From: an uncultured Actinomycetes bacterium
Lineage (GTDB): Bacteria; Actinomycetota; UBA4738; HRBIN12
Reading direction: 5' to 3'
Assembly (NCBI GenBank): GCA_964640965.1
Contig: CAZXJB010000001.1
Location: 6,150-70,149 of the forward strand
DNA length: 64,000 nt
Each line of letters opens with the position of its first letter. The first letter of the stretch is position 1. The notes below the pieces were generated by a model. It was not told the DNA's origin. It worked only from the letters and a program-made list of their open reading frames with translations, and did not search any database. Below are positions 25,767-43,277 of this stretch, piece after piece. The position numbers were made by a program, and so were the translations under genes.

Positions 25767-27365
25767 GTGTCGGAACGCAGGAAGGTGGGCTCGGTCACCT
25801 ACGAGGAGGTGGGCGAGGAGTACTTCGAGAAGCGCGGCCTGCGGCGACATGCGGCCTTCTGGTCGCTCTGGTCGCTCGGCGTCGCGGCCGTCATCTCGGG
25901 AGACTTCTACGGCTGGAACGTCGGGCTCGACGCCGGGGGGTTCGGCGGCCTCCTCGTCGCCACGGTGGTCGTGGCGATCATGTACTACGGCCTGTGCTTC
26001 AGCATCGCCGAGATGTCCCCGGCGCTGCCCCACACCGGCGGCGCGTACTCCTTCGCGCGCTCCGCGATGGGCCCCTGGGGCGGGTTCATCACCGGCCTCG
26101 CCGAGAACATGGAGTACGTGATCACGCCGGCCGTCGTGGTGTCGGCGATGGGCTTCCTCATGCACGACATCATGAAGGGCCTCCTCGACGTCGCCGGGGA
26201 GCCCGTGTGGAACAGCCCGGTGACGTGGATGGCGGTCTTCTACGTGATCTTCGTCGGGATCAACATCTCCGGCATCGAGGCCACGATGCGCTTCACGGTC
26301 GCCGTGAACATCGTGGCGCTCGGGATCCTCGGGGTCTTCTTCATCGCGGCCCTCGTCTCCGGGAAGCTCGACACCGCGAACTGGACGGACATCACGCCGC
26401 AGGCGGGCGGGTCGACGTTCTTCCCCAAGGGTCTCGGCGGGATCTTCCCCGCGATCCCGTTCGCGATCTGGTTCTTCCTCGCGATCGAGGAGCTGCCGCT
26501 CGCGGCCGAGGAGTCGATGGACCCCCGTCGCGACATCCCGAGGGCCACGATCTGGGGGATGACGACCCTCGTCATCACCGGCGCGCTGACGCTGTTCCTG
26601 AACACCGGCGTCGTGCCCGCCTCGCAGCTCGGCGTCTCGGCCACGCCGCTGTTCGACGGCTTCAAGGCCATCTTCGGCGAGGGGACCTCGGCCGAGCTGC
26701 TCGGCCTCATCGGGCTCTTCGGCCTCATCGCGAGCTTCTTCACGATCATCTACGCGTACGGCCGCAACACCTACTCGCTGTCCCGGGCGGGGTACTTCCC
26801 CAAGTGGCTGTCGCTCACGCACGGGACGCGGAAGACCCCCCACGTGGCGCTGATCGCGGGCGCCGTCGTGGGCTACGCGCTCGCGGTCCTGATGTACTGG
26901 CTGGGCCAGCAGGAGGGCGAGCTCGCCGGCAAGGTCGTCGGCGCGCTCCTGTACATGGCGGTCTTCGGCGCGGTCATCTCCTACGCGATGCAGTGCCTGT
27001 CGTTCATCCTGCTGCGCCAGAAGATGCCGCACATCCAGCGGCCGTACCGGAGCCCGGTCGGCGAGTGGGGCGCGGCGATCGCGGGGATCATCGCCATCGT
27101 GTCGCTGATCTCGCTGTACGGGAACGCCGACTACCGTCCCGGCGTGGTGGGAACGCTGATCTACTTCGTCCTCGGGATGCTGTACTTCGCCATCGCCGGG
27201 CGGCACCGGCTGGTGCTCTCGCCGGAGGAGGAGTTCGCCCTCACGAAGGGCGAGCGCGGGATCCCCGACGAGGCCGGGTTCGTCGCCTCTCGCGAGGAGC
27301 AGGAGGCGATCCTCCGCGGCGAGAGCGGGGGAGGCACGGGCGGTGGGCAGACGCCCTCCGACTGA
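25767..27365 (+). CDS. APC-superfamily permease, ethanolamine permease (Eat/EutP)-like
   Basis: The product has about 12 TM helices. A GGGAGGAGGTGG RBS precedes GTG 25767. The first 290 codons of track ORF 24897..27365 are antisense to the GntR gene and were rejected. Confidence 0.8.
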   Translation: MSERRKVGSVTYEEVGEEYFEKRGLRRHAAFWSLWSLGVAAVISGDFYGWNVGLDAGGFGGLLVATVVVAIMYYGLCFSIAEMSPALPHTGGAYSFARSAMGPWGGFITGLAENMEYVITPAVVVSAMGFLMHDIMKGLLDVAGEPVWNSPVTWMAVFYVIFVGINISGIEATMRFTVAVNIVALGILGVFFIAALVSGKLDTANWTDITPQAGGSTFFPKGLGGIFPAIPFAIWFFLAIEELPLAAEESMDPRRDIPRATIWGMTTLVITGALTLFLNTGVVPASQLGVSATPLFDGFKAIFGEGTSAELLGLIGLFGLIASFFTIIYAYGRNTYSLSRAGYFPKWLSLTHGTRKTPHVALIAGAVVGYALAVLMYWLGQQEGELAGKVVGALLYMAVFGAVISYAMQCLSFILLRQKMPHIQRPYRSPVGEWGAAIAGIIAIVSLISLYGNADYRPGVVGTLIYFVLGMLYFAIAGRHRLVLSPEEEFALTKGERGIPDEAGFVASREEQEAILRGESGGGTGGGQTPSD

Positions 27366-27453
27366 GAGCGGAGCACCGATGGAGGTGGGGGCGGCGGCCG
27401 ATACGGCCGCCGCCTTCGTGAGGACCGAGGTACCGGAACCGTAAGGAGGGACG

Positions 27454-28836
27454 ATGCAGCGGCAGGGAACGTTGACGGCGAAGGAGCTCGAGGAGCTCGC
27501 CGACGCCGGTGAGGTCGACACCGTCCTGTGCATGTTCACCGACCTGCAGGGCCGGTTCATGGGCAAGCGCGTGATCCCGCACTTCTTCCTCGAGGAGATC
27601 CTCGGCGAGGAGGGCCTGCACGCGTGCCTGTACCTGCTCGCGATCGACATGGAGATGGAGCCGCTCCCCGGTTACCGGTACGCGAGCTGGGAGACCGGCT
27701 ACGGGGACTTCCGCATGGTCCCCGACCTGTCGACCCTGCGCTGGTGCCCGTGGCTCGAGAAGACCGTCATGGTGATCTGCGACATCGCCGACGAGGAGAC
27801 GCGGGAGCCGGTCGAGGTCGCGCCGCGCCAGATCCTGAAGCGGCAGATCGAGCGGGCCGCCCAGAAGGGCTACGTCTTCAAGACCGGGTCGGAGCTGGAG
27901 TTCTACCTCTTCAAGGACTCCTACGACGAGATCGCGGACTCCGGCTACCGGAACCTGCGGCCCACCTCCTCGTACATCATGGACTACCACATGCTCCAGA
28001 CGACGAAGGACGAGTGGGTCATCCGGCAGATCCGCAACGGCATGCTCGGTGCGGGGCTCCCCGTGGAGTTCAGCAAGGGCGAGTTCGGCAAGGGACAGCA
28101 CGAGATCAACATCACCTACGCGGACGCGCTCACGACGGCCGACTACCACGCCTTCTACAAGCACGGGGTCAAGGAGATCTGCGCGGCCAACGGCGTCGCC
28201 GCGACCTTCATGGCCAAGTGGTCGATGGCCGAGGCTGGGTCATCCTGCCACATGCACTCGAGCGTGTGGAACGCCGACGGCAGCGAGTCCCTGATGTGGG
28301 AGGAGTCGGCCCCGCACCACCTCTCGGAGACGGCGCGCTACTTCCTCGGCGGCCTCCTCGCGACCGCCCGTGAGATGGCCTGGATGTACGCGCCGTTCGT
28401 GAACTCCTACAAGCGGTACCAGCTGGGCTCGTGGGCGCCCACCGCGATCGTGTGGAGCCGCGACAACCGCACCTGCGGCTTCCGGGTGGTCGGGGAGCAC
28501 AAGGGCCTGCGGATCGAGAACCGGATCCCCGGCGCCGACGTGAACCCCTACCTCGGCTACGCGGCCACGATCGCGAGCGGTCTGTGGGGGATCGAGAACC
28601 GGGTGGAGGCGCCCGAGATGTTCGTCGGGAACGCCTACGAGGCCAAGGACGTCCCGCGCGTCCCGACCGCCCTCCACGAGGCGATCGAGACGTTCCGGGG
28701 AAGCCAGGTCGCCCGCGAGGCGTTCGGCGACTTCGTGTTCGAGCACCTGTTGAACACGGCGGAGCAGGAGCAGATCATCTTCGACAACACGGTCGTGACG
28801 GACTGGGAGCTCGCCCGCTACTTCGAGCGCGGCTGA
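27454..28836 (+). CDS. glutamine synthetase family protein (GS type I-like, gamma-glutamyl-ethanolamide/polyamine synthetase GlnA4/PuuA-like)
   Basis: The GS catalytic domain is recognisable ('ELEFYLF', 'KGEFGKGQHEINI', 'NSYKRY'). It sits immediately downstream of the ethanolamine-type permease. Confidence 0.9.
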   Translation: MQRQGTLTAKELEELADAGEVDTVLCMFTDLQGRFMGKRVIPHFFLEEILGEEGLHACLYLLAIDMEMEPLPGYRYASWETGYGDFRMVPDLSTLRWCPWLEKTVMVICDIADEETREPVEVAPRQILKRQIERAAQKGYVFKTGSELEFYLFKDSYDEIADSGYRNLRPTSSYIMDYHMLQTTKDEWVIRQIRNGMLGAGLPVEFSKGEFGKGQHEINITYADALTTADYHAFYKHGVKEICAANGVAATFMAKWSMAEAGSSCHMHSSVWNADGSESLMWEESAPHHLSETARYFLGGLLATAREMAWMYAPFVNSYKRYQLGSWAPTAIVWSRDNRTCGFRVVGEHKGLRIENRIPGADVNPYLGYAATIASGLWGIENRVEAPEMFVGNAYEAKDVPRVPTALHEAIETFRGSQVAREAFGDFVFEHLLNTAEQEQIIFDNTVVTDWELARYFERG

Positions 28837-28913: not shown

Positions 28914-29942
28914 ATGTCCGAGCTCAACGTGGTCGCCTACCGTCCTTCGCGCGCGGAGTACGCGTGGACGTTCGGGGGCGCCGCCCCGGTGAGGAAGGTG
29001 CGCCCCGGTGACGTCCTCGAGCTCTGGACGGACGACTGCTTCACGAGCCTCGTGCGCAGCGTCGACGATCTCGCCTCGAGCAAGATCGTGTTCCCGTTCC
29101 TGAACCCGCAGACCGGCCCCTTCTACGTCGAGGGCGCGGAGCCCGGCGACACCCTCGCCCTGCACTTCGTCTCGATCGAGCCGTCCCGTGACTGGGGGGT
29201 CTCGACGACGTTCCCGCTGTTCGGAGCGCTGACGTCCACCACCCGGACGGTCACGCTGCAGGACCCGCTCCCGGAGATCGTATGGATCTACCAGGTCGAC
29301 CGCGAGCGCCGCCTCGTGCGGTACGAGGCTCGAGCCGGCGACCACACCGTCGATCTCCCCCTCGACCCCATGCACGGCACGGTCGGGGTGGCGCCTCCGA
29401 ACCTCGAGGTGCGGTCCCCGCTGGTCCCGGACTCGCACGGCGGCAACATGGACACGCCCGAGATGCGCGTGGGGACGACCTGCTACCTCGGGGTGAACGT
29501 CGAGGGCGCGCTCTTCTCCATCGGGGACGGGCATTACCGGCAGGGCGAGGGCGAGACGTGTGGGGTCGCCGTCGAGGGCGCCATGGACACGACGCTCATC
29601 GTCGACCTCATCAAGGGCCGATCGACCCCGTGGCCCCGCCTGGAGGATGACCGGTACATCATGTCGGCCGGCTCGGCCCGGCCGCTCGAGGACGCGTTCC
29701 GCATCGCCCACGCGGATCTGATCGCATGGCTCGTGGAGGAGTTCGGTCTCGAGCGACTCGACGCCTACCAGCTCGTGACGCAGATCTCGGAGACGCCGAT
29801 CGCGAACGTGTGCGACCCCAACTACACCGTCGTCGCCAAGGCCCCGAAGCGGTACCTGCCGAGCGGCTCGGTCTACGACGGCGCCCACGGACGGCTGCGG
29901 GAGATGGCCGCCGGGTACCGGCGCGAGCGCGGCCTCGCCTGA
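28914..29942 (+). CDS. acetamidase/formamidase (FmdA_AmdA family)
   Basis: The protein begins 'MSELNVVAYRPSRAEYAWTF'. The fold matches FmdA_AmdA. A GGAGGAGG RBS is present. Confidence 0.85.
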   Translation: MSELNVVAYRPSRAEYAWTFGGAAPVRKVRPGDVLELWTDDCFTSLVRSVDDLASSKIVFPFLNPQTGPFYVEGAEPGDTLALHFVSIEPSRDWGVSTTFPLFGALTSTTRTVTLQDPLPEIVWIYQVDRERRLVRYEARAGDHTVDLPLDPMHGTVGVAPPNLEVRSPLVPDSHGGNMDTPEMRVGTTCYLGVNVEGALFSIGDGHYRQGEGETCGVAVEGAMDTTLIVDLIKGRSTPWPRLEDDRYIMSAGSARPLEDAFRIAHADLIAWLVEEFGLERLDAYQLVTQISETPIANVCDPNYTVVAKAPKRYLPSGSVYDGAHGRLREMAAGYRRERGLA

Positions 29943-29944
29943 GC

Positions 29945-30649
29945 ATGCGCCCGGTCGTCGGGATCCGGCATCACCTCCCCCACGAGCTCGGCGTGGTCGC
30001 CGAGGTGCTGGACGAGGAGCGCGTCCCCCACCGGTACCTGGACGCCTGGAGCGAGCCCGACTGGCCCGATCCCGACCACGTCTCCGGTCTGGTCGTGCTG
30101 GGCGGCGAGATGAACGCCGATGAGCTCACGACCTACCCGTTCCTCGCCCGGGAGCGGGCCTACCTGCGCGCGGCGGCCGACGCGGGCGTGCCGATCCTCG
30201 GCATCTGCCTCGGCGCCCAGGTGCTCGCCCGGGCCTTCGACGCGCCGGTCACCCCCTCGCCCGTGCCCGAGCTCGGGTTCCACCCGGTGACGACGACCCC
30301 CGCGGGATCGGCCGACCCGGTCCTCTCCCCCTTCGACGGGATCCCGGTGTTCCAGTGGCACGCCGACACGTTCGGCATCCCCACCGGCGCGGTCCACCTC
30401 GCTCGCGGGGACCGGGTCCCGAACCAGGCGTTCCGGGTCGGCCGCGCCTGCTACGCGGTGCAGTTCCATCCCGAGGCCACGCTCGAGGGGATCGCGGCGT
30501 GGGTCGACCGCTGGGAAGCGGATGTCCGGCGAACGGGTCGGGAGCCCGACGACCTGATCCGGGAGGCGGAGCACGCCTTGCCCGCGCAGCAGGAGGCCGG
30601 CCGGTCGGCGTTCCGAGCGTTCGCGGCCCTCGTGGCCGAGCGTGGCTAG
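29945..30649 (+). CDS. class I glutamine amidotransferase-like hydrolase (gamma-glutamyl-amine hydrolase PuuD-like)
   Basis: 'PILGICLGAQ' (nucleophile Cys) and 'VQFHPE' are present. The ATG lies 2 nt after the amidase stop. Confidence 0.8.
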   Translation: MRPVVGIRHHLPHELGVVAEVLDEERVPHRYLDAWSEPDWPDPDHVSGLVVLGGEMNADELTTYPFLARERAYLRAAADAGVPILGICLGAQVLARAFDAPVTPSPVPELGFHPVTTTPAGSADPVLSPFDGIPVFQWHADTFGIPTGAVHLARGDRVPNQAFRVGRACYAVQFHPEATLEGIAAWVDRWEADVRRTGREPDDLIREAEHALPAQQEAGRSAFRAFAALVAERG

Positions 30650-31488
30650 GCCTCGCCCTCCCAGGCGCCCGGCTCGCGGCCGAGCTCCCGATACCCCTCC
30701 CCGACCTCCTGGTACCACTTCCGAGCGGGACCGACCCTCGCGCGCAGCTTCCACCGGAGGCTCTTCGGCTTGGCCTCCACGAGTCGCCAGAGGTGGTCCA
30801 TCCGCTCCTCGACGAGCGCGCGCTGCCCGTCCGAGAGATCCGGGATCGTCTGCATGTATCGGCGGATCCGGTCGAGGTTCAGCGACACGGTGTAGTAGAA
30901 GCCCCACTCCCCCGAGAGCAGGTCCACGATCCGCGACGCGTCGAACGCCCCCGGGCTCTCGTGATCGGCGATCGGATGCTCGAGGAACAGGACGACCAGG
31001 TCCTTCAGGTCCTTCTCGTTGATCTCGACGATCTGGAGCTTCTCGAGCAGCAGGTCCGTGAGCGGGATCGTGACGGGGTCGAGGTCGAGCCTGCCGCGCA
31101 GGTCGATCGTGTGGCAGAAGTCGAGACGGTCGAGGAAGACGTCGACCCGGCGCCGCGCCCCCGAGGGATCGTGGAAGATGCGGCGGCCGACCCAGACGTC
31201 CATCGTGACCCCGCGCCCCCCGAGGACCTCGTACCCGAGCTCGGCGAACATCCGCTCGACCTGTCCGATCTCCCGGTCGTACCCCATGAAGTCGAGGTCG
31301 GTGAGGATCCGGTTCGTCTTCTCCAGCAGCCACACGTGCTGCGGGCACTGTCTGATGACCGCGAGCGCGCCCAGCAGCCGCAGGTGCACCCCGTGGGCGC
31401 GGGCGGCCTCGATGATCGTCTCGGCCTCCGCGACGAACTCCGGCCACGCCGAGAACGGCTCGCCGATCGGTCCGCTCGGCTCCTGCAT
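30646..31488 (-). CDS. hypothetical protein, possibly nucleotidyltransferase-fold
   Basis: The 280-aa product has a 'LLGALAV...ILTDLDF' segment loosely resembling the Pol-beta NTase G...DxD motif. Its start is 2 nt from the metallophosphoesterase stop. Confidence 0.5.
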   Translation of the reverse strand: MQEPSGPIGEPFSAWPEFVAEAETIIEAARAHGVHLRLLGALAVIRQCPQHVWLLEKTNRILTDLDFMGYDREIGQVERMFAELGYEVLGGRGVTMDVWVGRRIFHDPSGARRRVDVFLDRLDFCHTIDLRGRLDLDPVTIPLTDLLLEKLQIVEINEKDLKDLVVLFLEHPIADHESPGAFDASRIVDLLSGEWGFYYTVSLNLDRIRRYMQTIPDLSDGQRALVEERMDHLWRLVEAKPKSLRWKLRARVGPARKWYQEVGEGYRELGREPGAWEGEA

Positions 31489-31489
31489 C

Positions 31490-34295: not shown

Positions 34296-34571
34296 TCAGC
34301 CGGCCCCCTCGATCGCGAGGAGGAGCTGCACCAGGAGGATGGCGACCGCGTTCACCACGATCACGAGCGCGAGGTCGGGGTGCTCCACGGCGACCTCTCC
34401 TCTCGCGGCCGCGCGCAGCCGCGACCCAACGTGCACGAGCGCGACGAGGGCGAGCGCCGGCACCGCCACCTCGGGGCCGGCGAGCAGCACCCACCCGATG
34501 GCGAACAGGACGGCCAGCCACGCCGGCCGCCTGATCCGAGCCCGGTCCCGGCGCCTCATCCCGGGAGCCAT
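34296..34571 (-). CDS. small membrane protein (two predicted TM helices), 91 aa
   Basis: The product is hydrophobic ('WLAVLFAIGWVLLAGPEVAVPALALVALV...LVIVVNAVAILLVQLLLAI'). It lies between the GS-like gene and the permease. Confidence 0.3.
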   Translation of the reverse strand: MAPGMRRRDRARIRRPAWLAVLFAIGWVLLAGPEVAVPALALVALVHVGSRLRAAARGEVAVEHPDLALVIVVNAVAILLVQLLLAIEGAG

Positions 34572-36474: not shown

Positions 36475-38421
36475 TCACCGCCGGGAGCCCGTTCGGGACG
36501 CTCGGCGTCCGGCACCTCGCTCCCCGCGCGGTCCCGCGGGCGCCGTGAGCTCGCGGAGGCGGATGATCCGCAGGGCCATCATGAGGTCGAACCACCGAGC
36601 GGTCTCCGTCACGTCGAGCTCGGCCACCTGTCGGATCTTCTGGAACCGGAGCCGCAGGGTGTTCCGGTGCACGAAGAGGCGCTCGGCCGCGAGCTTCGCG
36701 TTCCCCATGCACTCCAGGTACACCTCGACGGTGCGGAACAGGTGGGTCCCCTTGGCCCGATCGTGCTCCACGAGGCGGTGCAGCCGCTCCTGGTAGACGT
36801 CCCGGACCTGCTGCTGCGCCACGTGGAAGAGGTGCCACTGGGCGCCGAGCTCGTCGAAGGTCACCGCCGCCCCCGGACCGCGGGTCGCGCGACCGATCAG
36901 CAGCGCGTTCCTCGCCTCCTCGAAGGCGTCCGGGTAGTCGTCCACGGCGCGGCAGAGCCGCGAGACCCCCACCGACACGAGCACGTCCTGACGTCGCTCG
37001 TGCGGCCGCTTCAGCTCGCACAGCCGCTCGGCGAGGCGATCCAGGCTCGTCGCCGGGGCCACGCGCAGGAGCGCCGTCAGCGTGTGGTCCCGATGCGTCG
37101 CGAGCGACCCCGGGAACCCACCCATGAGGTCCTGCCGGAGGGCCGACCACAGCCGATCGACGTCCGCCCCGCCGGTGCCCGCGGCGATCTCGAAGGCCGC
37201 GACCACGTGCGGCTGCCCGAGGTCCACCCCGAGCCGCAGCGCGCGACCCTCGAGGAGCTGCGCGTCGTCCTCACCGCGCGCGAGCGCCTCGAAGAGGTCG
37301 CGCACGACGTTGCGCTCCGTGAGGGTCTCGATGAGCCTCGCGTTCTGGACGGCGAGCGCCGCCTGGGACGCCAGGGTCAGCAGGAGCTCGCCGTCCTCCC
37401 GGTGCGGCGTGCCGGCCGATCTCGAGAGGCACGCGAGCACGCCGATCACGCGCTCCGACACGCGCATCGGCGCCACGAGCGCCGAGCGGGCCTGCGGCGC
37501 GATCAGGTCGAAGGCCCGGAAGGCCTCCGCGTGCTCGCGCCGCGACAGGGCGAGCGCCGAGGTCGCGCCGAGGAGCCGCGCCCACACCCCGTCCGCCGGA
37601 AGCGTCGGCGGCGGCCCGCCCATCGAGCCCGGCACGGCCTCCCAGAAGGCCTCGACCCCCAGGTGCCCGCCGGCCTCATCGAGCGCGAGGATGGCGGACC
37701 GGTCCGCCGCCACGAGCATCGCCGCCGTGCCGGCCAGCCGGTGCAGCACATGCCGCAGGGAGGAGGTCTGCACGACCGCCTGGCCGGCCTCCGCGAGCGT
37801 GTTCAGGACCTGCACCTGCCGGGCCTGCCGCTCGTACAGCTGCGCGTTCTCGACCGCCGTCGCGATGAGCACCGAGAGGGTGTTCATGAGGATGAGGTCG
37901 TCGTCGTCGAAGCGGTGGGGCGCCTCGGTGTGCATCGTGATGACGCCGATGAGCCGCCCGTTCGCGGAGATCACCGGGATCGTGAGGTAGGACTGGTACC
38001 GATCGTCGTTCAGCTCCGGGAAGCGCTTGAACCGAGGATCCTGGGTGGGGTTCTCCGTGATCATCCCCGGCTGGCGCGTGAGCGCGGTCCAGCCCGTGAG
38101 CCCCTCACCGAGGGCGAGCCCGAACCGACCGATCCACCGCTCGTAGCCCTCCACCCCCGCGCGGACGATGAGCCGCTCGCTCTCCTCGTCCCAGAGGTAC
38201 ACGAGGGCCCCGTGGCACCCGGTGAGCTCCTTGCAGAGGTGGACGACGTAGTCGAGCAGCTTGGCGACGTCGAGCGTCGAGGCCAGGCTCGCGAGGATCC
38301 CGAAGAGCGCCTCGGTCTCGCGCCGCTTGTCCCGGAGCATCTGACGCAGGGCCCGGGCGGCCTCCGCCGGCGGGGTCGCGAGGCCCCGTCGGGCGCTGCG
38401 GTGGGCCGCGGATCTCGTCAT
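36475..38421 (-). CDS. GAF-GAF-PucR(CdaR)-type transcriptional regulator
   Basis: Two GAF domains are followed by a C-terminal PucR HTH ('LFVHRNTLRLRFQKIRQV'). ATG 38421 has a GGAGG RBS. The upstream 174 codons of the track ORF were rejected. Confidence 0.8.
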   Translation of the reverse strand: MTRSAAHRSARRGLATPPAEAARALRQMLRDKRRETEALFGILASLASTLDVAKLLDYVVHLCKELTGCHGALVYLWDEESERLIVRAGVEGYERWIGRFGLALGEGLTGWTALTRQPGMITENPTQDPRFKRFPELNDDRYQSYLTIPVISANGRLIGVITMHTEAPHRFDDDDLILMNTLSVLIATAVENAQLYERQARQVQVLNTLAEAGQAVVQTSSLRHVLHRLAGTAAMLVAADRSAILALDEAGGHLGVEAFWEAVPGSMGGPPPTLPADGVWARLLGATSALALSRREHAEAFRAFDLIAPQARSALVAPMRVSERVIGVLACLSRSAGTPHREDGELLLTLASQAALAVQNARLIETLTERNVVRDLFEALARGEDDAQLLEGRALRLGVDLGQPHVVAAFEIAAGTGGADVDRLWSALRQDLMGGFPGSLATHRDHTLTALLRVAPATSLDRLAERLCELKRPHERRQDVLVSVGVSRLCRAVDDYPDAFEEARNALLIGRATRGPGAAVTFDELGAQWHLFHVAQQQVRDVYQERLHRLVEHDRAKGTHLFRTVEVYLECMGNAKLAAERLFVHRNTLRLRFQKIRQVAELDVTETARWFDLMMALRIIRLRELTAPAGPRGERGAGRRASRTGSRR

Positions 38422-38531: not shown

Positions 38532-39827
38532 CTACACCGCCCGGATGTAGCGCTCGCGCTCCCAGTCCGTCACGGTCTCCTGCCACGCCTTCAGCTCCCA
38601 CTCGCGCGAGGTGACGAAGTACCGGCTGAACGCCTCCCCGAGGGCCCCTCGCAGCCCGGCGTCCTCGCGGAACGCCCCGATCGCGGCCTCGAGGGAGCCG
38701 GGAAGCAGCGGGAGATCGGTCCTCGCGTAGGCATCCCCCGACTCGGCCGGAGGGGGGATGAGCCCCCGGCGCACGCCGTCGGCCGCCGAGGCGGCGATCG
38801 CCGCCAGGGCGAGGTACGGGTTGGCGTCGGCCCCGGGCCGGCGGCACTCGAAGCGCCACAGCTCGGGTCGGGCCGAGCGGATCGCGCGCACCGCGCAGGA
38901 CCGGTTCTCGTAGCCCCAGGTGGCGTTGATCGGCGCGAACCACCCCGGGACGAGCCGCTTGTACGAGTTGATCGTGGGGTTCAGCAGGAGCGATGCCGCC
39001 GGGAGGTGCTCGAGCAGCCCGGCGACGGCCGAGCCGAAGACCTCCGGGAGGGGCTCGCCGGGGTCGGCCCCCGCGAAGGCGTTCACGTCCCCCCGCCAGA
39101 AGGACATGTGGACGTGGCCGCTCGAGCCCTCCTCCCCGGGGACCGTCTTCGCGAGGAAGCTCGCTCGGAAGCCCATCGAGGCGGCCACCTGCTTCACGGC
39201 GAACTTCACGAGGGCCGCGTCGTCCGCCGCCCGGAGGCCGCGCCCGGGGGCCAGGTTCAGCTCGAGCAGCCCCGGACCGGCCTCCGTGTGCACGGCGGAG
39301 AGCCCCACCCCCAAGCCCTCGAGGGCGCGCACCAGCTCGTCGAGGAACCGGGCGTAGCCCCCGATCTCGTTGATGCTGTAGCTGATCCCCGTGGAGGTCG
39401 GCTGGCCCCGCTCGTCGAAGATGCGGATCTCGTACTCGATCGCCGCCATGACCTCGTAGCCGAGCTCCCCGACGTCGGCGAGGACCCGCCGATAGACCTC
39501 ACGGGTCGCGTACGCGCACGGGGAGCCGTCGGGCCAGCTCGGCGTGACCAGGCACAGCCGCCAGCCCGGGCGCCAGGTGAGCTCCCGCACGGAGTCCGGC
39601 TCGGGGTGGACGACCAGGTCCGGCGCCCCGACCCGGATCCCGAAGCGCTCGTAGTCCGAGATCGGGGTGTCGACGGGGTCGAGCCCGAGGAGCAGATCGG
39701 TCATGACCGTCCCGCGCTCCACCGCGGTCTCGAAGGCCGCGGGCCGCAGCGCCTTGCCGCGCAGCGACCCGTTCACGTCGGGCATCGCGAGCAGGATGAA
39801 CTCCTCGTGGGCGTCCGCGCCGCTCAT
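38532..39827 (-). CDS. glutamine synthetase family protein (gamma-glutamylpolyamine synthetase-like)
   Basis: The GS domain is recognisable ('EYEIRIF', 'SGHVHMSFW', 'NSYKRL'). ATG 39827 overlaps the upstream stop (ATGA). Confidence 0.9.
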   Translation of the reverse strand: MSGADAHEEFILLAMPDVNGSLRGKALRPAAFETAVERGTVMTDLLLGLDPVDTPISDYERFGIRVGAPDLVVHPEPDSVRELTWRPGWRLCLVTPSWPDGSPCAYATREVYRRVLADVGELGYEVMAAIEYEIRIFDERGQPTSTGISYSINEIGGYARFLDELVRALEGLGVGLSAVHTEAGPGLLELNLAPGRGLRAADDAALVKFAVKQVAASMGFRASFLAKTVPGEEGSSGHVHMSFWRGDVNAFAGADPGEPLPEVFGSAVAGLLEHLPAASLLLNPTINSYKRLVPGWFAPINATWGYENRSCAVRAIRSARPELWRFECRRPGADANPYLALAAIAASAADGVRRGLIPPPAESGDAYARTDLPLLPGSLEAAIGAFREDAGLRGALGEAFSRYFVTSREWELKAWQETVTDWERERYIRAV

Positions 39828-41188
39828 CGCCGCCCTCCGGCCAGCCGGTCCTTGATCCGCCGCTCGACGTCGACCATCGTCTCGGCCAGGCGCTCGAGCA
39901 TCTGCGTCAGCTCCTCCTCCGTGCTCGTGTAGGCCGGCGCGAACACCGTCTGGTCCCCCGCGTAGCCGTCCGCCTGGGGGTGGGTCGAGGTCACGAGGAG
40001 ACCGTGCTCGAGGGCCGCGTCGTCCACGAGCGCCCCGGCGTCGAGCTCCACGGGCAGGAAGGACCCCCCATCCCGCGGGTCCACGAGCTCGAACCCGAGC
40101 AGGAACCCCCGACCCCGGACCTCCCGCACGATCTCGCGTCCGGCGAGCGCCGCCCGCAGCTCCTCCAGCAGCCGCGGCCCCCGCTCCCGCACGCGCGTCA
40201 CGAGATCGCGCTCGAGGAGCAGGTCGATCACCCGCAGCCCGACGGCGCAGGACAGCGGCGCGCCGTCCCAGGTGTGGCCGAGGTCGAACTCCCGCGAGCC
40301 GCGGTCGACGGCCTCGTAGACGTGCGAGCGACATAGCACCGCGCCGAGGGGGGCGTGCCCGGCGCCGAGCGCCTTCCCGACCGCGACGATGTCGGGCTCG
40401 ATCGGCACCTGATCGGCCGCGAGCCAGGTCCCGACCCGACCGATCCCGGTCACGACCTCGTCGAAGCAGAGGAGGAACCCGTGGCGCTCGCGGCGCTCGG
40501 CCAGCCCCCGCCAGAACCGGTCGGGCGGCGCGTGCCCGGGCAGGGCTGCGGCGCCCACCGGCTCGCAGAGGAACGCCGCGATGCTGTCCCCCTCCGCCTC
40601 GAGGATCCGGTCGAGCGCCGCGAGCGCCGCCTCCCCGTCGGGATCGCCCGGACGCCCCGGCGGCGGGATGTGGCGGTGGTCGGCCAGGTACGGGGTGTAC
40701 GGCTCCTGCAGCGCCCGACGCCCGGTCAGCGCGAGCGTCCCCATCGTCGAGCCGTGGTAGGCCTGGGCCTGCGAGACCACGCGCCAGCGCCGGGTCTCGC
40801 CCCGCTCCACGTGGTACAGGCGGGCGAGCTGGACCATGGTCTCGACCGCCTCCGACCCGCCGGAGACGAAGCGGACCCTGGCCATGCCCGGCGCGACGAC
40901 CTCGGTCAGCCGCTCGGCCAGCCGCTCCTGAGGACCGCTCGTGAAGTGGTGGTTGTAGAAGTACGAGATGCGCTCGGCCTGCTCGGCCGCGGCCGCCGCG
41001 AGCTCGGGCACGCCGTGCCCGAGGCAGGTCACCATCGCCCCGCCGGAGCAGGCGTCGAGGATGCGCCGTCCGTCGACGGTGGTGAGCCACACCCCCTCGC
41101 CGCGCTCGACCTCCGGGTAGGCGAGGTCGAGGAAGCGGGGGAACACGTGCGTGGCGTCCGCCGTCACCGAGCCCGCCACCCGACTCAC
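39824..41188 (-). CDS. class III PLP-dependent aminotransferase
   Basis: The AT-III fold is recognisable ('FDEVVTGIGRVG', 'VAVGKALGAG'). GTG 41188 overlaps the upstream stop (GTGA). Confidence 0.85.
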   Translation of the reverse strand: MSRVAGSVTADATHVFPRFLDLAYPEVERGEGVWLTTVDGRRILDACSGGAMVTCLGHGVPELAAAAAEQAERISYFYNHHFTSGPQERLAERLTEVVAPGMARVRFVSGGSEAVETMVQLARLYHVERGETRRWRVVSQAQAYHGSTMGTLALTGRRALQEPYTPYLADHRHIPPPGRPGDPDGEAALAALDRILEAEGDSIAAFLCEPVGAAALPGHAPPDRFWRGLAERRERHGFLLCFDEVVTGIGRVGTWLAADQVPIEPDIVAVGKALGAGHAPLGAVLCRSHVYEAVDRGSREFDLGHTWDGAPLSCAVGLRVIDLLLERDLVTRVRERGPRLLEELRAALAGREIVREVRGRGFLLGFELVDPRDGGSFLPVELDAGALVDDAALEHGLLVTSTHPQADGYAGDQTVFAPAYTSTEEELTQMLERLAETMVDVERRIKDRLAGGRR

Positions 41189-41907
41189 CCCGCCCTCGTG
41201 GCGAGGCCGGCGTCCCCGCGGCCGAGCCCGGCGATCCCCTCGAGGAAGCCCTCGAAGAGCCGCCACGCCATGGCCTTGCTCGCCTCGGCCCGACGGCGGG
41301 TCTCCTCGAGGAGCGCATCGGGGTCCACGCCCTCGGCGTCGAGCTCGTGCCGGTAGGCGCGCACCCACTCGTCCATGATCCCCACCGTCACCTCGGGGTG
41401 GAACTGGAGGCCGAGGCTGCGCCCGGCCACGAACGCCTGCGGCCCGGCGTCGGACTCCGCGATGAGCGTGGCCCCCTCGGGGACGGTGAACGAGTCGAAG
41501 TGCCACTGGAACCACGGGCCCTCGGGGACGAGGTCGGGGCGTGAGCTCCGCACCGGCAGCCACCCGATCTCGGCGGTGGCGCGGAACCCCTCGCCCCCGA
41601 GGACCCGGGCGAGCAGCTGACCGCCGAAGCAGAGCCCCAGGATCGGCACGTCCGCCCCCACCGCCCGCTCCATGAGGCGCGCCTCCCTCTGGACGAACGG
41701 CTTCGTGTCGTCGAAGGCCGCGAACTCCGAGCCGAGCGAGACGATCAGGTCGAAGCGGCGGGGGTCAACGTCGCGCTCCTCGAGGTCGATGCGGTAGACG
41801 TCCACGTCGGCTCCGTGCTCGGCGAGCCACTCCGTCACGTGGCCCGGCGGCGTCGGGTCCTCGTGCTGGAGGATCAACGCCCGAAGGGGCCGATCGATCC
41901 CGGTCAT
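41185..41907 (-). CDS. class I glutamine amidotransferase-like protein
   Basis: 'ILGLCFGGQLL' and 'LQFHPE' are present. An AGGAGGTGGGG RBS precedes ATG 41907, with an ATGA overlap. Confidence 0.8.
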   Translation of the reverse strand: MTGIDRPLRALILQHEDPTPPGHVTEWLAEHGADVDVYRIDLEERDVDPRRFDLIVSLGSEFAAFDDTKPFVQREARLMERAVGADVPILGLCFGGQLLARVLGGEGFRATAEIGWLPVRSSRPDLVPEGPWFQWHFDSFTVPEGATLIAESDAGPQAFVAGRSLGLQFHPEVTVGIMDEWVRAYRHELDAEGVDPDALLEETRRRAEASKAMAWRLFEGFLEGIAGLGRGDAGLATRAG

Positions 41908-43277
41908 CCCCCCACCTCCTGCTTGGTCATCGGGTGCGCGTCGAGCTCGGCCTCGACCTCGTCCCACACGGCGCGGACCGCGTCGGCGAACCGGGCCACC
42001 ATCTCCCCGAGCTCCTCCTCGGGCGTCGTGAAGGGCGGCGCGAACAGGGTCTGGTCGCCCGCGTAGCCGTCCCGCGTCGGCTGGGTCGAGAGCGTGATGA
42101 GCCCCCGCTCGAAGGCGGCCCGGTCGATCCTGCCCGCCACGCGCAGCTCGGGCGGGAGGAACGAGGTGCCGTCGCGCGGGTCGGCGAAGGACACCCCGAG
42201 CAGGAAGCCGTGCCCGCGGACCTCCTGCACGATGGGGATGCCCTCCAGGGCGACGGCGAGCGCCTCGCGCAGCCCCGGACCCCGCTCGGCCACGCGCTCC
42301 ACGAGCCGCTCCGAGCGCAGCGCCTGCAGGACGGCGAGCCCGACCGCGCAGGCGAGCGGCGCCCCATCCCAGGTGTGCCCGAGGGGGAACCGCCGCGATC
42401 CCGTCGCGATCGCCTCGTACACGTGCCCCGCGCAGAGCACGGCGCCGATCGCCGTGTACCCCGCGCCCAGGCCCTTCGCGGTGGCGATGATATCCGGGGC
42501 GCAGGGGGTGGCCTCGCCGGCGAACCACCGACCGGTCCGCCCGACGCCCGTCACGACCTCGTCGAAGCAGACGAGGAAGCCGTGCCGCTCCCGGCGCTCC
42601 GCGAGCCCCTCCCAGAACCTGCGCGGCGGCGTGTACGCCGGGAGGGCCGCCGAGCTGATCGCCTCGCAGAAGAAGGCCGAGACGTTCTCCGGACCGGCCT
42701 CCTCGAGCGCCGCGTCCAGGGCCGCGAGGGTCGCCTCCCCCGTGGGGTCGAAGCGGGGGGTGGCCGGCGGGATGTGCAGGTGACGGGCGAAGTACGGCGT
42801 GAACGGGCCCTGGAGCCCGGGCCGACCGGTGAGCGCGAGGGTCTCCATCGTCGGCCCGTGGTAGGCCTGCGCTGGGGAGATCACGATCCAGCGCTGCGGC
42901 TCGCCGCGCTCGACGTGGTAGCTGCGGGCGAGCTGCACGGCCATCTCGTTCGCGTCCGAGCCGCTCGTCACGAAGCGCACGCGCGTGAAGCCAGGCGGCG
43001 CCAGCGCCGCGAGCTCCTCGGCGAGGCGCTCCTGCGCCGGGTTCGTGAGCCGCTCGTTGTGCACGAAGGCGAGGCGCTCGGCCTGCGCACGGGCCGCGGC
43101 GATGATGTCCCGCCGACCGTGGCCGAGGGTGGCGGCCATGGACCCCCCGCTCATCGCGTCGAGGTACCGGCGCCCGTCGGAGTCCTCCACCCACGCGCCC
43201 TCGCCCCGCACGATCTCGGGGTAGTCGCGCCCCAGCTCGAGCTGGAAGACCCGGCTCGCCTCGTTCGAAACGCTCAC
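41904..43277 (-). CDS. class III PLP-dependent aminotransferase (paralogue)
   Basis: It is collinear with the 39824..41188 product. GTG 43277 has a GGGGAGGTGGG RBS. Confidence 0.85.
   Translation of the reverse strand: MSVSNEASRVFQLELGRDYPEIVRGEGAWVEDSDGRRYLDAMSGGSMAATLGHGRRDIIAAARAQAERLAFVHNERLTNPAQERLAEELAALAPPGFTRVRFVTSGSDANEMAVQLARSYHVERGEPQRWIVISPAQAYHGPTMETLALTGRPGLQGPFTPYFARHLHIPPATPRFDPTGEATLAALDAALEEAGPENVSAFFCEAISSAALPAYTPPRRFWEGLAERRERHGFLVCFDEVVTGVGRTGRWFAGEATPCAPDIIATAKGLGAGYTAIGAVLCAGHVYEAIATGSRRFPLGHTWDGAPLACAVGLAVLQALRSERLVERVAERGPGLREALAVALEGIPIVQEVRGHGFLLGVSFADPRDGTSFLPPELRVAGRIDRAAFERGLITLSTQPTRDGYAGDQTLFAPPFTTPEEELGEMVARFADAVRAVWDEVEAELDAHPMTKQEVGG

What the first reader, a model, noticed from the sequence alone, without database searches (positions are those of the whole stretch)
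25767..43277. About 17.5 kb of redundant gamma-glutamylation-type polyamine/ethanolamine catabolic genes
Three glutamine-synthetase-family paralogues sit at 27454, 34640(-) and 38532(-). Each is adjacent to transport or downstream-pathway genes. An ethanolamine-type APC permease, a formamidase/acetamidase and a GATase1 hydrolase lie on the plus strand. A PuuP-like APC permease, a CBS protein, a GAF-PucR regulator and a GS/aminotransferase/GATase1/aminotransferase operon with 4-nt overlaps lie on the minus strand. By analogy with Streptomyces GlnA2/GlnA3/GlnA4 and E. coli Puu, these would detoxify or assimilate polyamines and ethanolamine through gamma-glutamyl intermediates. Two aminotransferases and two GATase1 genes in one coupled operon is unusual. 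The substrate of each GS-like enzyme cannot be assigned from sequence alone.
Basis: partly seen in the sequence, partly recalled or inferred. Interest (0 to 1): 0.55.

Follow-up and report, generated by a model that had tools for sequence, protein, structure and literature searches.

The report
Three-module gamma-glutamyl amine catabolism island
An uncultured hot-spring/soil actinobacterium carries a conserved gene island with three glutamine-synthetase look-alikes that cannot make glutamine. They most likely tag ethanolamine and other amines with glutamate so the amines can be broken down, which is a known strategy; one four-gene arrangement in the island has not been studied.

Summary
Three Gln-synt_C genes sit at 27454-28836(+), 34640-35968(-) and 38532-39827(-), with the described neighbours and three real 4-nt overlaps.

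Corrections:
- The minus-strand operon has one GATase1, not two.
- The second permease is not PuuP-like.
- Two interior genes (30646-32434) were missed.
- The paralogues share only 28-32% identity, so they are not redundant.

All three keep the metal, ATP and glutamate residues but replace the E327 flap with W/F/F and lack the ammonium site. They are gamma-glutamyl-amine ligases, not glutamine synthetases.

GS1 groups (100% bootstrap) with the ethanolamine gamma-glutamylase of Chromohalobacter (PDB 5dm3) and lies beside an ethanolamine permease.

AT-GATase1-AT-GS3 is intact in 56 of 60 related MAG loci. The same ALDH type lies within 3 kb downstream of GS3 in 31 of 62 loci. No PuuB-like oxidase occurs in the window or the loci. 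I infer a transaminase-driven Puu/Spu-like route for a diamine; the substrate is unproven. The substrate of the GS2 module is unknown.

Verdict: a new variant of a known kind, of moderate interest.

The parts
18807..20291 (-). Aldehyde dehydrogenase, candidate gamma-glutamyl-aldehyde dehydrogenase.
   Evidence: Pfam Aldedh 586 bits. 38.5% identical to E. coli PuuC, 50.6% to the ALDH of the Paenarthrobacter TC1 ipu cluster, and 48% to the ALDH of the YJN-5 ALDH-AT-GS operon. Its 71-81% orthologue lies within 3 kb downstream of GS3, on the opposite strand in nearly all cases, in 31 of 62 loci. It lies next to SDR-permease-GS1 in L057 and L074. No NCBIfam equivalog is reached.
20268..21137 (+). 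SDR oxidoreductase, candidate gamma-glutamylethanolamide dehydrogenase. The true start is probably about 30 codons further in.
   Evidence: Pfam adh_short_C2 219.7 bits, with the match starting at residue 37-45. 60% identical to the T. roseum SDR encoded between the GS1 orthologue and eat. It directly heads the permease-GS1 operon in L057, L074 and KatS3mg013.
25767..27365 (+). Ethanolamine permease (APC, EAT family)
   Evidence: TIGR00908 384.8 bits against a cut-off of 381.75. 53% identical to the annotated T. roseum eat.
27454..28836 (+). GS1: GS-like ligase, predicted ethanolamine gamma-glutamylase (gamma-glutamylethanolamide synthetase)
   Evidence: Gln-synt_C 5e-93. PDB 11zs 466 bits and 5dm3 421 bits. 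51% identical to the Paracoccus Eto-cluster GS and 56% to the T. roseum GS. The clade has 100% bootstrap. E327 is replaced by W.
28914..29942 (+). FmdA/AmdA-family amidase; role unassigned
   Evidence: Pfam FmdA_AmdA 85 bits. Full-length match to PDB 5ubu, a 'putative acetamidase/formamidase' (245 bits). Not a formamidase equivalog: 57 bits against a cut-off of 500. It travels with the GS1 operon in L002 and KatS3mg013, but occurs without GS1 in L033.
29945..30649 (+). GATase1 (GAT1), predicted gamma-glutamyl-amide hydrolase that releases glutamate
   Evidence: Pfam GATase 51.7 bits. Catalytic GICLGAQ and HPE motifs are present. 35-38% identical to GATases encoded beside GS-like genes in Rhizobium ACO-34A and Paenarthrobacter TC1. 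No hit to E. coli PuuD.
30646..31488 (-). Conserved hypothetical protein (280 aa), last gene of the GS2 operon
   Evidence: No Pfam or NCBIfam hit; NTP_transf_5 only at E=0.08. 3961 homologues, the 120 best listed all at least 68% identical and from metagenomes or MAGs, those named being Actinomycetota. The AF2 model is poor, pLDDT 59.5. It follows the metallophosphoesterase gene in L002, L033, L034 and KatS3mg013.
31490..32434 (-). Metallophosphoesterase (314 aa)
   Evidence: The exact 314-aa product is P0189. Sources name homologues 'metallophosphoesterase' or 'Icc-related phosphoesterase'. AF2 pLDDT 93.7. The best folds are the uncharacterised aq_1956 and TT1561.
32514..34121 (-). APC-superfamily permease (APC2); substrate unknown
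   Evidence: AA_permease_2 50.4 bits and no NCBIfam hit. No BLAST hit to PuuP. 86-94% conserved next to GS2 in L002, L026, L033 and L034.
34296..34571 (-). 91-aa hydrophobic small ORF between GS2 and APC2
   Evidence: Read from the sequence. A similar 89-aa gene is called at the same position in KatS3mg013.
34640..35968 (-). GS2: GS-like gamma-glutamyl-amine ligase; substrate unknown
   Evidence: Gln-synt_C 6e-87. E327 is replaced by F. Best named relative: the Rhizobium ACO-34A GS at 45%, itself next to a GATase1. The clade with the Rhizobium ACO-34A GS has 100% bootstrap support, and the wider clade adding the second T. roseum GS has 99%. It lies divergent upstream of AT1 in 33 of 53 loci.
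36013..36408 (-). Stand-alone CBS-pair protein
   Evidence: Pfam CBS x2, 105 bits. It is replaced by a DUF6885 protein at the same position in KatS3mg013.
36475..38421 (-). GAF-GAF-GGDEF_2-PucR(HTH_30) transcriptional regulator
   Evidence: Pfam. In KatS3mg013 the same architecture sits divergent to AT1 and heads the GS2 operon. 31% identical over 224 aa to the GAF protein next to ipuC on pTC1.
38532..39827 (-). GS3: GS-like gamma-glutamyl-amine ligase; predicted diamine or other amine substrate
   Evidence: Gln-synt_C 5.6e-85. E327 is replaced by F, and N264 by E. Best relatives in cultured organisms are about 35% identical IpuC-like proteins. It forms its own clade. Orthologues at 65-90% identity occur in 79 loci.
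39824..41188 (-). AT2: class III (omega-) aminotransferase
   Evidence: Aminotran_3 263.6 bits. The PLP lysine is present (VGKALGAG). 58% identical to AT1 and 55% to the YJN-5 operon AT.
41185..41907 (-). GATase1 (GAT2), predicted gamma-glutamyl-amide hydrolase
   Evidence: GATase 44.7 bits. GLCFGGQ and HPE motifs are present. Best PDB hit is 7d54, the stand-alone glutaminase of M. smegmatis (identity per PMC12958103).
41904..43277 (-). AT1: class III (omega-) aminotransferase, first gene of the coupled four-gene operon
   Evidence: Aminotran_3 258.6 bits. The PLP lysine is present (TAKGLGAG). The best PDB hits are class III aminotransferases: 3i4j, 6io1, 6gwi 'putrescine aminotransferase' and 9j4z 'polyamine:pyruvate transaminase'.

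Best explanation
The region is an amine-catabolism island. It is built from three separate gamma-glutamylation modules, each centred on a glutamine-synthetase-like ATP-dependent ligase. Each ligase joins glutamate to an organic amine instead of ammonia.

Module A (ethanolamine):
- The permease at 25767 imports ethanolamine.
- GS1 makes gamma-glutamylethanolamide.
- The SDR at 20268 and the ALDH at 18807 oxidise it to gamma-glutamylglycine.
- GATase1 at 29945, or the FmdA-like amidase at 28914, releases glycine plus glutamate.

Module C (AT1-GATase1-AT2-GS3, translationally coupled):
- GS3 glutamylates one amino group of a diamine-type substrate.
- One omega-transaminase converts the free distal amine to an aldehyde. 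This takes the place of the PuuB/PauB oxidase, which is absent.
- The ALDH oxidises the aldehyde.
- The GATase1 removes glutamate.
- The second transaminase deaminates the released omega-amino acid.

Module B (GS2, small membrane protein, APC permease, metallophosphoesterase, unknown protein) handles a third, unidentified amine. The GAF-PucR regulator lies between modules B and C and probably controls them.

Shown: gene content, active-site pattern, clade membership of GS1, and conserved synteny. Inferred: every substrate, the order of steps, and the regulator's targets.
For: - Active sites: all ligase chemistry residues are kept and the ammonium/flap residues are lost in all three. None passes the GlnA, PuuA or type III cut-offs.
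- GS1: 100% bootstrap clade with 5dm3/Csal_0679 and the Paracoccus RpiR-TRAP-GS-ALDH-FeADH cluster, which matches the published ethanolamine pathway (PMC10132767, PMC6529630).
- T. roseum has GS(56%)-SDR(60%)-eat(53%) in one operon.
- The permease passes the TIGR00908 cut-off.
- In L057 and L074 the layout is ALDH<->SDR-permease-GS1-GATase1-AT1-GATase1-AT2-GS3. In KatS3mg013 it is SDR-small ORF-permease-GS1-GATase1-Fmd.
- Module C is intact in 56 of 60 loci. The ALDH orthologue lies within 3 kb downstream of GS3, on the opposite strand in nearly all cases, in 31 of 62.
- Both aminotransferases keep the PLP lysine and both GATases keep Cys/His/Glu.
- AT1 and AT2 resemble amine:pyruvate and putrescine/polyamine transaminases.
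- There is no PuuB-like oxidase in the window or in the 79 loci.
- A cultured Paenarthrobacter carries an ALDH(48%)-AT(55%)-GS operon.
- The same GATase1 subtype sits beside GS-like genes in Rhizobium, Paenarthrobacter and Microbacterium.
- Pseudomonas spuA/spuB/spuC combine the same three families, and SpuC is described as deaminating gamma-glutamylputrescine (PMC10606097).
Against: - No substrate has been tested, and GS3 and GS2 have no characterised relative above 45% identity.
- GS3's nearest named relatives are IpuC-like monoalkylamine enzymes that work with P450s, not transaminases.
- Module C has no transporter of its own in most genomes.
- The window's ALDH and SDR are 5-18 kb from the GS genes, separated by a sugar-type operon.
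- The known ethanolamine pathway uses an FGase-family hydrolase, an Fe-ADH and a TRAP transporter. None of these is present here, so three steps rest on non-orthologous replacement.
- The best PDB match of the GATases is a glutaminase.
- The roles of the FmdA-like amidase, the CBS protein, the metallophosphoesterase and the 280-aa protein are unexplained.
Confidence: 0.62

Rival explanations
1. Module C encodes two parallel routes rather than one sequential pathway. AT1 and AT2 would act directly on free amines or omega-amino acids (PatA/SpuC/GabT-like aminotransferase route). GS3 plus GATase1 would form a separate gamma-glutamyl buffering or detoxification cycle for the same or another amine.
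For: The aminotransferases' nearest PDB relatives are class III aminotransferases, several labelled putrescine or polyamine:pyruvate transaminases, whose labels name free amines rather than gamma-glutamylated ones. E. coli and Pseudomonas run both routes side by side (PMC8998196, PMC10606097). Gene order (AT-GATase-AT-GS) does not follow the proposed reaction order.
Against: The four genes are tightly coupled by translation and their order is conserved in 56 of 60 loci. The ALDH-AT-GS operon in Paenarthrobacter has no second route. A GS-like ligase plus a hydrolase with no intervening chemistry would be a futile ATP-consuming cycle.
Confidence: 0.2
2. Module C is biosynthetic. The GATase1 would supply ammonia from glutamine, and the aminotransferases would aminate aldehydes. 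GS3 would ligate glutamate to the product, making a gamma-glutamyl-amine or polyamine-like metabolite that is core to this lineage.
For: The operon lies directly after the housekeeping genes uppS and recO, with only a 144-nt gap. It has no transporter. It is 65-90% conserved across class-level diversity, including Acidimicrobiia. The best PDB hit for the GATase is a genuine glutaminase (PMC12958103).
Against: It recurs next to permeases, an aldehyde dehydrogenase, a PucR-type catabolic regulator and other catabolic GS-like modules. The stand-alone GATase1 has no synthase partner. Its relatives in cultured bacteria sit in degradative plasmid clusters.
Confidence: 0.1
3. One or more of the three proteins is a working glutamine synthetase, so the cluster is ordinary nitrogen assimilation.
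For: The best PDB hits of GS2 and GS3 are labelled plain 'glutamine synthetase', apparently genuine enzymes such as the Methanothermococcus one (186-209 bits). All ligase residues are intact.
Against: The E327 flap is aromatic in all three and in all orthologues, and D50, S53 and Y179 are not conserved. Scores fall far below the GlnA cut-off: 208-257 bits against 429. Each gene is partnered with a GATase1 hydrolase, aminotransferases or a permease.
Confidence: 0.03

Closest known systems
Ethanolamine gamma-glutamylation pathway (Chromohalobacter salexigens Csal_0678-0679 cluster, Agrobacterium, Phaeobacter Eto cluster; Streptomyces coelicolor GlnA4)
   Same: GS1 is 47-51% identical to Csal_0679 (PDB 5dm3) and to the Paracoccus Eto-type GS, in one 100%-bootstrap clade. 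It is adjacent to an ethanolamine transporter. A dehydrogenase pair and a hydrolase are available (PMC10132767, PMC6529630).
   Different: The transporter is an APC 'eat' permease, not TRAP. The alcohol dehydrogenase candidate is an SDR, as in T. roseum, not an Fe-ADH. The hydrolase candidate is a GATase1 or an FmdA-like amidase, not the formylglutamate-amidohydrolase family. The ALDH and SDR are displaced 5 kb upstream. Orthology to GlnA4 itself was not tested.
Pseudomonas aeruginosa/putida spuA-spuB-spuC and pauA-D polyamine gamma-glutamylation system
   Same: It combines the same three enzyme families, GS-like ligase, class I amidotransferase-type hydrolase and class III amine:pyruvate aminotransferase, in one locus, plus an ALDH. 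SpuC is described as deaminating gamma-glutamylputrescine (PMC10606097).
   Different: Here there are two paralogous aminotransferases (58% identical) flanking the hydrolase. By Pfam and NCBIfam the GATase1 is a generic class-I (GMP-synthase-like) amidotransferase with only a short partial Peptidase_C26 match, and it has no BLAST hit to the C26 enzyme PuuD. There are no PauB oxidases and no ABC polyamine transporter.
E. coli Puu pathway (PuuP-PuuA-PuuB-PuuC-PuuD-PuuE)
   Same: The logic is the same: ligase, oxidation of the distal amine to an aldehyde, ALDH (38.5% identical to PuuC), hydrolase, then omega-amino-acid aminotransferase (29-31% identical to PuuE).
   Different: There is no PuuB, PuuD or PuuP homologue. 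The GS-like proteins are 27-28% identical to PuuA and score below the PuuA NCBIfam cut-off (194-244 bits against 650).
IpuC-type gamma-glutamyl-alkylamide clusters on Micrococcales plasmids (Paenarthrobacter aurescens TC1 pTC1, Microbacterium pYJNG)
   Same: These hold the nearest named relatives of GS3 (about 35%). They have the same GATase1 subtype, the same ALDH subtype (50.6%), and a GAF-domain regulator next to the ligase.
   Different: Those clusters modify the gamma-glutamyl intermediate with a P450/ferredoxin system. The window has aminotransferases and no P450.
ALDH-AT-GS operon of Paenarthrobacter sp. YJN-5 plasmid pYJN5-2 (uncharacterised)
   Same: The aminotransferase is 55% identical to both AT1 and AT2, and the ALDH is 48% identical to the window ALDH. 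They are coupled to a GS-like ligase.
   Different: It has a single aminotransferase and no GATase1. Its GS belongs nearer GS1 (45%) than GS3 (34%). It is flanked by 5-oxoprolinase pxpABC genes.

Membership tests
Bona fide glutamine synthetase type I (GlnA) | Ammonium-site and flap residues D50, S53, Y179 and E327 (Salmonella numbering) | tested here: not met
   E327 is replaced by W/F/F in a well-aligned block. D50, S53 and Y179 are not conserved in either of two MAFFT alignments.
Bona fide glutamine synthetase type I (GlnA) | Score at or above the TIGR00653 curated cut-off (429 bits) | tested here: not met
   GS1 239.9 bits, GS2 257.3 bits, GS3 208.6 bits.
GS-like gamma-glutamyl-amine ligases (PuuA/PauA/GlnA3/GlnA4/IpuC kind) | Gln-synt_C fold with metal, ATP and glutamate residues retained (E129, E131, E212, E220, H269, H271, R321, R339, R344, E357, R359) | tested here: met
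   All eleven are retained in GS1, GS2 and GS3 and in their MAG orthologues.
GS-like gamma-glutamyl-amine ligases (PuuA/PauA/GlnA3/GlnA4/IpuC kind) | Bulky non-acidic residue in place of the E327 flap (F331 in GlnA4, W296 in PauA7 per PMC6529630; Y in PuuA) | tested here: met
   W327, F307 and F297 in GS1, GS2 and GS3 respectively.
GS-like gamma-glutamyl-amine ligases (PuuA/PauA/GlnA3/GlnA4/IpuC kind) | ATP-dependent gamma-glutamylation of an organic amine, with no glutamine synthesis | not testable with these tools
   This needs an enzyme assay.
Ethanolamine gamma-glutamylase (Csal_0679 / Eto GS / GlnA4 function) | Close sequence relationship to a biochemically assigned member | tested here: met
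   GS1 scores 421 bits (about 47% identity) against 5dm3 and is 51% identical to the Paracoccus Eto GS. The clade has 100% bootstrap.
Ethanolamine gamma-glutamylase (Csal_0679 / Eto GS / GlnA4 function) | Genomic linkage to an ethanolamine transporter and to alcohol and aldehyde dehydrogenases | tested here: met
   An adjacent permease passes TIGR00908. The SDR and ALDH lie 5 kb upstream in the window and are directly fused to the operon in L057, L074 and KatS3mg013.
Ethanolamine gamma-glutamylase (Csal_0679 / Eto GS / GlnA4 function) | Orthology to Streptomyces coelicolor GlnA4 (SCO1613) | not tested
Only the residue spacing reported in PMC6529630 could be compared; it is collinear with GS1.
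PuuA (gamma-glutamylputrescine synthetase equivalog NF045547) | Score at or above 650 bits | tested here: not met
   194, 244 and 201 bits. 27-28% identity to E. coli PuuA.
PuuD / peptidase C26 gamma-glutamyl-GABA hydrolase | Full-length Peptidase_C26 match and similarity to PuuD | tested here: not met
   Only a 29-33-residue C26 stretch around the nucleophile matches (25 bits). There is no BLAST hit to E. coli PuuD. The catalytic Cys and the His-x-Glu motif are present.
PuuP putrescine importer | Sequence similarity to E. coli PuuP | tested here: not met
   The permease at 32514-34121 has no BLAST hit to PuuP. The ethanolamine permease shows only 21% identity over 245 aa.
Class III omega-aminotransferases | Aminotran_3 fold with the PLP-binding lysine and the preceding aspartate | tested here: met
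   263.6 and 258.6 bits. The motifs FDEVVTG...K(A/G)LGAG are in both proteins.
PucR-family transcriptional regulators | GGDEF_2 domain plus C-terminal HTH_30 | tested here: met
   PF17853 61 bits and PF13556 64 bits, preceded by two GAF domains.

The most novel reading that the evidence does not exclude
AT1-GATase1-AT2-GS3, together with the ALDH that lies within 3 kb downstream of GS3 in half of the related loci, is an uncharacterised, oxygen-independent version of the gamma-glutamyl diamine/polyamine pathway. One transaminase would work on the gamma-glutamylated amine, replacing the PuuB/PauB oxidase. Its 58%-identical paralogue would work on the released omega-amino acid. The pathway is a near-universal core trait of a large uncultured lineage of soil and hot-spring Actinomycetota. 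In those genomes up to four GS-like paralogues form one 'gamma-glutamylation island' for scavenging organic nitrogen.
Probability: 0.35. Interest if true: 0.5.

Novelty: new variant of a known kind. Interest (0 to 1): 0.36.

Why it matters
Gamma-glutamylation is the main non-toxic route by which bacteria use or detoxify ethanolamine and polyamines. It has been studied only in a few cultured Proteobacteria, Streptomyces and mycobacteria.

This island shows that an abundant uncultured actinobacterial lineage keeps three or four ancient, non-redundant GS-like ligases side by side. The 120 best GS3 hits in metagenomes are all at least 76% identical.

One ligase can be assigned to ethanolamine with a different set of accessory enzymes. 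Another sits in a conserved transaminase-based operon with no oxidase. If that operon is confirmed, it adds an oxygen-independent variant of the Puu/Pau pathway and offers thermostable omega-transaminases and gamma-glutamyl ligases of practical interest. It would also help correct the routine misannotation of such genes as 'glutamine synthetase' and 'GMP synthase' in MAG-based nitrogen-cycle inventories.

Tried and rejected
- Exact-match look-up of the window's GS3 on public contigs failed twice, although the protein is in the collection. The source contig is known only as a 73,091-nt NCBI record.
- Taxonomy could not be refined. 'bacterium HR12' is unclassified. There is no rRNA, tRNA or Rfam element in the window.
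- Placing the proteins with Streptomyces or Mycobacterium GlnA2/3/4 and with Pseudomonas PauA1-7 was not possible, because those sequences are in none of the accessible collections. I substituted E. coli GlnA and PuuA, PDB-derived 5dm3 and 11zs, and plasmid-borne relatives.
- The identity of PDB 11zs could not be established.
- The sigma-70 promoter and intrinsic-terminator scan gave nothing above background.
- The AF2 model of the 280-aa protein was too poor to search (pLDDT 59.5). The fold search for the metallophosphoesterase returned only uncharacterised or generic family members.
- The context of the second T. roseum GS-like gene was uninformative.
- I rejected ALDH 45842-47368 as the pathway's second dehydrogenase. 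It sits with deoC and is only 43% identical to the GS3-linked ALDH type.
- I rejected the GntR/UTRA gene at 24837-25574 as the ethanolamine regulator. It overlaps the aldolase gene by 4 nt and belongs to the inserted sugar-type operon.

Full report
**1. What is in the sequence**

The window is about 72% G+C. I therefore called genes from third-position GC and start-codon context. Nine of the ten products I looked up, and the 314-aa version of the tenth, are exact matches to proteins already called on a 73,091-nt NCBI contig.

Plus strand:
- 25767-27365: ethanolamine permease (TIGR00908, 384.8 bits against a cut-off of 381.75).
- 27454-28836: GS1 (Gln-synt_C, 5e-93).
- 28914-29942: FmdA/AmdA-family amidase.
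- 29945-30649: GATase1.

Minus strand, all co-directional from recO and uppS downwards:
- 41904-43277: AT1.
- 41185-41907: GATase1.
- 39824-41188: AT2.
- 38532-39827: GS3.
- 36475-38421: GAF-GAF-GGDEF_2-PucR regulator.
- 36013-36408: CBS pair.
- 34640-35968: GS2.
- 34296-34571: 91-aa hydrophobic ORF.
- 32514-34121: APC permease.
- 31490-32434: metallophosphoesterase.
- 30646-31488: conserved hypothetical protein.

The overlaps ATGA, GTGA and ATGA at 41904-07, 41185-88 and 39824-27 are real.

- The coupled operon has one GATase1, not two.
- The second permease has no detectable similarity to PuuP.
- Two interior genes were missed.
- The three GS-like proteins share only 28-32% identity, so they are not redundant.
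- Relevant genes lie outside the span (section 3).

**2. The three ligases are not glutamine synthetases**

I aligned them with E. coli GlnA and PuuA. All three keep every metal, ATP, phosphate and glutamate ligand: E129, E131, E212, E220, H269, H271, R321, R339, R344, E357 and R359.

The E327 flap glutamate becomes W (GS1) or F (GS2, GS3). D50, S53 and Y179 are not conserved. A second, 30-sequence alignment gives the same result for the window proteins and their orthologues. The identities at the D50, S53 and Y179 columns depend on the alignment; the E327 replacement does not.

This is the pattern published for GlnA4 (F331) and PauA7 (W296) (PMC6529630). It differs from GlnA2, which is reported to retain D50, Y179 and E327 (PMC8998196).

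None of the three reaches the curated cut-offs for GlnA, type III GS or PuuA.

**3. GS1 module: ethanolamine**

- GS1's best solved relatives are 11zs (466 bits) and 5dm3 (421 bits, about 47% identity). 5dm3 is the Chromohalobacter salexigens GS-like protein Csal_0679; I know this assignment from memory of the PDB entry. A glutamylation-based ethanolamine pathway in that organism is cited in PMC6529630 and PMC10132767.
- In the plasmid collection, GS1 is 51% identical to a Paracoccus alcaliphilus GS in an RpiR-TRAP-GS-ALDH-FeADH cluster. That cluster mirrors the published Eto operon of Phaeobacter (PMC10132767).
- GS1 is 56% identical to a Thermomicrobium roseum GS in a GS-SDR-eat operon.
- A neighbour-joining tree puts GS1 and its MAG orthologues in a 100%-bootstrap clade with these proteins. 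IpuC-like proteins form the sister group.
- The window's SDR at 20268-21137 is 60% identical to the T. roseum SDR. The permease is 53% identical to T. roseum eat.
- In related MAGs the SDR is physically part of the operon. L057 and L074 read ALDH<->SDR-permease-GS1-GATase1-.... KatS3mg013 reads SDR-small ORF-permease-GS1-GATase1-Fmd.
- In the window a kinase/Zn-ADH/aldolase/GntR block (21432-25574) is inserted between the SDR and the permease.

I conclude that module A is an ethanolamine gamma-glutamylation pathway. Its transporter (APC), alcohol dehydrogenase (SDR) and hydrolase (GATase1 and/or FmdA-like) replace the TRAP, Fe-ADH and FGase-family proteins of the characterised version and are not orthologous to them. 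The FmdA-like protein is a full-length homologue of an uncharacterised structural-genomics protein (5ubu). Its role is open.

**4. AT1-GATase1-AT2-GS3: a conserved, unstudied operon**

A scan of one genome per species with GS3 returned 79 loci. All are uncultured genomes (MAGs), nearly all labelled Actinomycetota or Acidimicrobiia, at 65-90% identity. The closest are the hot-spring bins HRbin12 and QQ.bins.69. The protein collection holds over 4,000 relatives, and the best 120 are all at least 76% identical.

Synteny across the loci:
- The four genes occur in the same order and orientation in 56 of 60 loci that have enough flank.
- GS2 is divergent immediately upstream in 33 of 53 loci.
- Permease-GS1 is co-directional upstream in 7 of 53 loci.
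- An aldehyde dehydrogenase lies within 3 kb downstream of GS3, on the opposite strand in nearly all cases, in 31 of 62 loci. Its orthologue in the window (72-81% identical) is the gene at 18807-20291.

Enzyme features:
- Both aminotransferases keep the PLP lysine. They are 58% identical to each other.
- Their best solved relatives are class III aminotransferases, including entries named putrescine aminotransferase and polyamine:pyruvate transaminase.
- Both GATases keep the Cys nucleophile and the His-x-Glu motif. By Pfam and NCBIfam they are generic class-I (GMP-synthase-like) amidotransferases with only a short partial Peptidase_C26 match, and they have no BLAST hit to PuuD. Their best PDB match is the stand-alone M. 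smegmatis glutaminase 7d54 (PMC12958103).
- The same GATase subtype sits beside GS-like genes in Rhizobium ACO-34A, Paenarthrobacter TC1 and Microbacterium.
- E. coli PuuB has no homologue in the window or in any of the 79 loci. PuuD and PuuP have none in the window.
- A cultured Paenarthrobacter plasmid carries a duplicated ALDH-AT-GS operon. Its aminotransferase is 55% identical to AT1 and AT2, and its ALDH is 48% identical to the window ALDH.

Proposed mechanism, inferred and not shown:
1. GS3 gamma-glutamylates one amino group of a diamine-type substrate.
2. A transaminase converts the distal amine to an aldehyde. The gamma-glutamyl group prevents cyclisation of the amino-aldehyde.
3. The ALDH oxidises the aldehyde.
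4. The GATase1 releases glutamate and an omega-amino acid.
5. The second transaminase deaminates the omega-amino acid.

This is the Puu/Pau logic with a transaminase in place of the oxidase. The Pseudomonas literature already ascribes that role to SpuC, which is encoded with spuA (amidotransferase) and spuB (GS-like) (PMC10606097).

The main caveat is GS3 itself. Its nearest named relatives, at about 35% identity, are IpuC-like monoalkylamine ligases in P450-based clusters. Those clusters also carry a GAF regulator 31% identical to the window's.

**5. GS2 module**

GS2 forms a clade with the Rhizobium ACO-34A GS (100% bootstrap; 45% identity), which is itself preceded by a GATase1, and, one node out, with a second T. 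roseum GS (99% bootstrap). Haloarchaeal GS-like proteins, encoded next to class III aminotransferases, are 35-37% identical. A Haloferax GlnA-2 has glutamate-putrescine ligase activity (PMC8394153), but I could not test its relationship to GS2.

GS2 travels with the small membrane ORF, the APC permease, the metallophosphoesterase and the 280-aa protein in L002, L033, L034 and KatS3mg013. The metallophosphoesterase model is confident (pLDDT 93.7), but its best fold matches are uncharacterised.

In KatS3mg013 the GAF-PucR regulator heads this operon, divergent from AT1. A DUF6885 protein stands where the window has the CBS protein. The substrate of this module is unknown. A phosphorylated amine that the phosphoesterase would release is a speculation only.

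**6. Comparison, novelty and score**

The island works like the known gamma-glutamylation pathways (Puu, Pau/Spu, GlnA3/GlnA4, Eto, Ipu). GS1 can be filed in the ethanolamine gamma-glutamylase clade. GS2 and GS3 cannot be filed under PuuA, GlnA, or the GlnA2 residue pattern.

The AT-GATase1-AT-GS operon, the accessory-enzyme replacements in the ethanolamine module, and the packing of three paralogue modules (four in relatives) into one island are variants, not a new principle.

I rate it a new variant of a known kind, with interest 0.36. It is a solid, well-conserved and mis-annotated catabolic island in an abundant uncultured lineage, with one operon worth biochemical follow-up. It would not surprise a specialist.

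Noticed in passing
window 34296-34571 (-): A 91-aa hydrophobic small ORF (about two membrane helices) lies in the 518-nt gap between GS2 and the APC permease. A similar 89-aa gene is called at the same position in KatS3mg013 (L088 6863-7132). It may be a permease accessory subunit.
   Followed up: partly
window 44988-45842 (-): A 284-aa ALDH-like protein has only the N-terminal NAD-binding half (Pfam Aldedh positions 5-233 of 461), joined to a short C-terminal tail, with no catalytic domain. It sits between a full ALDH (45842-47368, followed by deoC at 47381-48547) and recO. GC3 still looks coding. It could be a remnant or a real truncated paralogue.
   Followed up: partly
window 21432-25574 (-): An FGGY kinase, Zn-ADH, DhnA-type aldolase and GntR/UTRA operon is inserted between the SDR and the ethanolamine permease. 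In L057, L074 and KatS3mg013 the SDR is joined directly to the permease operon.
   Followed up: partly
window 16945-18765 (+): A cNMP-binding, CBS-pair, DUF294 nucleotidyltransferase signalling protein is encoded next to the ALDH. A second, stand-alone CBS-pair protein lies in the island at 36013-36408.
   Followed up: no
related loci, e.g. L004 732-5686 and L010 549-4988: Many related MAGs carry a fourth GS-like paralogue paired with an Amidohydro_2 protein and another APC permease, upstream of GS2. This gives four GS-like genes in one island. In this paralogue R359 is replaced by K.
   Followed up: partly
related loci, 110-160 nt upstream of AT1 (e.g. L004, L010, L013, L061): A conserved motif, G(T/G)TATACCGTG-N17-20-CCGCAACG, occurs in the GS2<->AT1 divergent intergenic region of about 20 relatives. 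Its reverse complement contains TATAAC, so it may be the GS2 promoter -10 element or an operator. It is not present as such in the window, where uppS precedes AT1.
   Followed up: partly
L094 (Paenarthrobacter sp. YJN-5 plasmid pYJN5-2) 7573-11740 and 13622-17789: A duplicated ALDH-aminotransferase-GS-like operon is flanked by 5-oxoprolinase pxpA/B/C genes, pdxS and IS21 copies. This hints that the glutamyl moiety may leave as 5-oxoproline in that system.
   Followed up: partly
window 26000-34000: G+C drops to 0.68-0.70 over the ethanolamine and GS2 modules, against 0.72-0.75 in the flanks. This may reflect membrane-protein content or a different history.
   Followed up: no
window 30646-31488 (-): The 280-aa hypothetical protein has thousands of homologues, the 120 best listed all at least 68% identical and from metagenomes or MAGs (those named being Actinomycetota), and no Pfam domain. 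The invariant LLGALAV and DLDF motifs resemble the G[SA]/DxD signature of Pol-beta-type nucleotidyltransferases. The AF2 model was too poor (pLDDT 59.5) to test this.
   Followed up: partly
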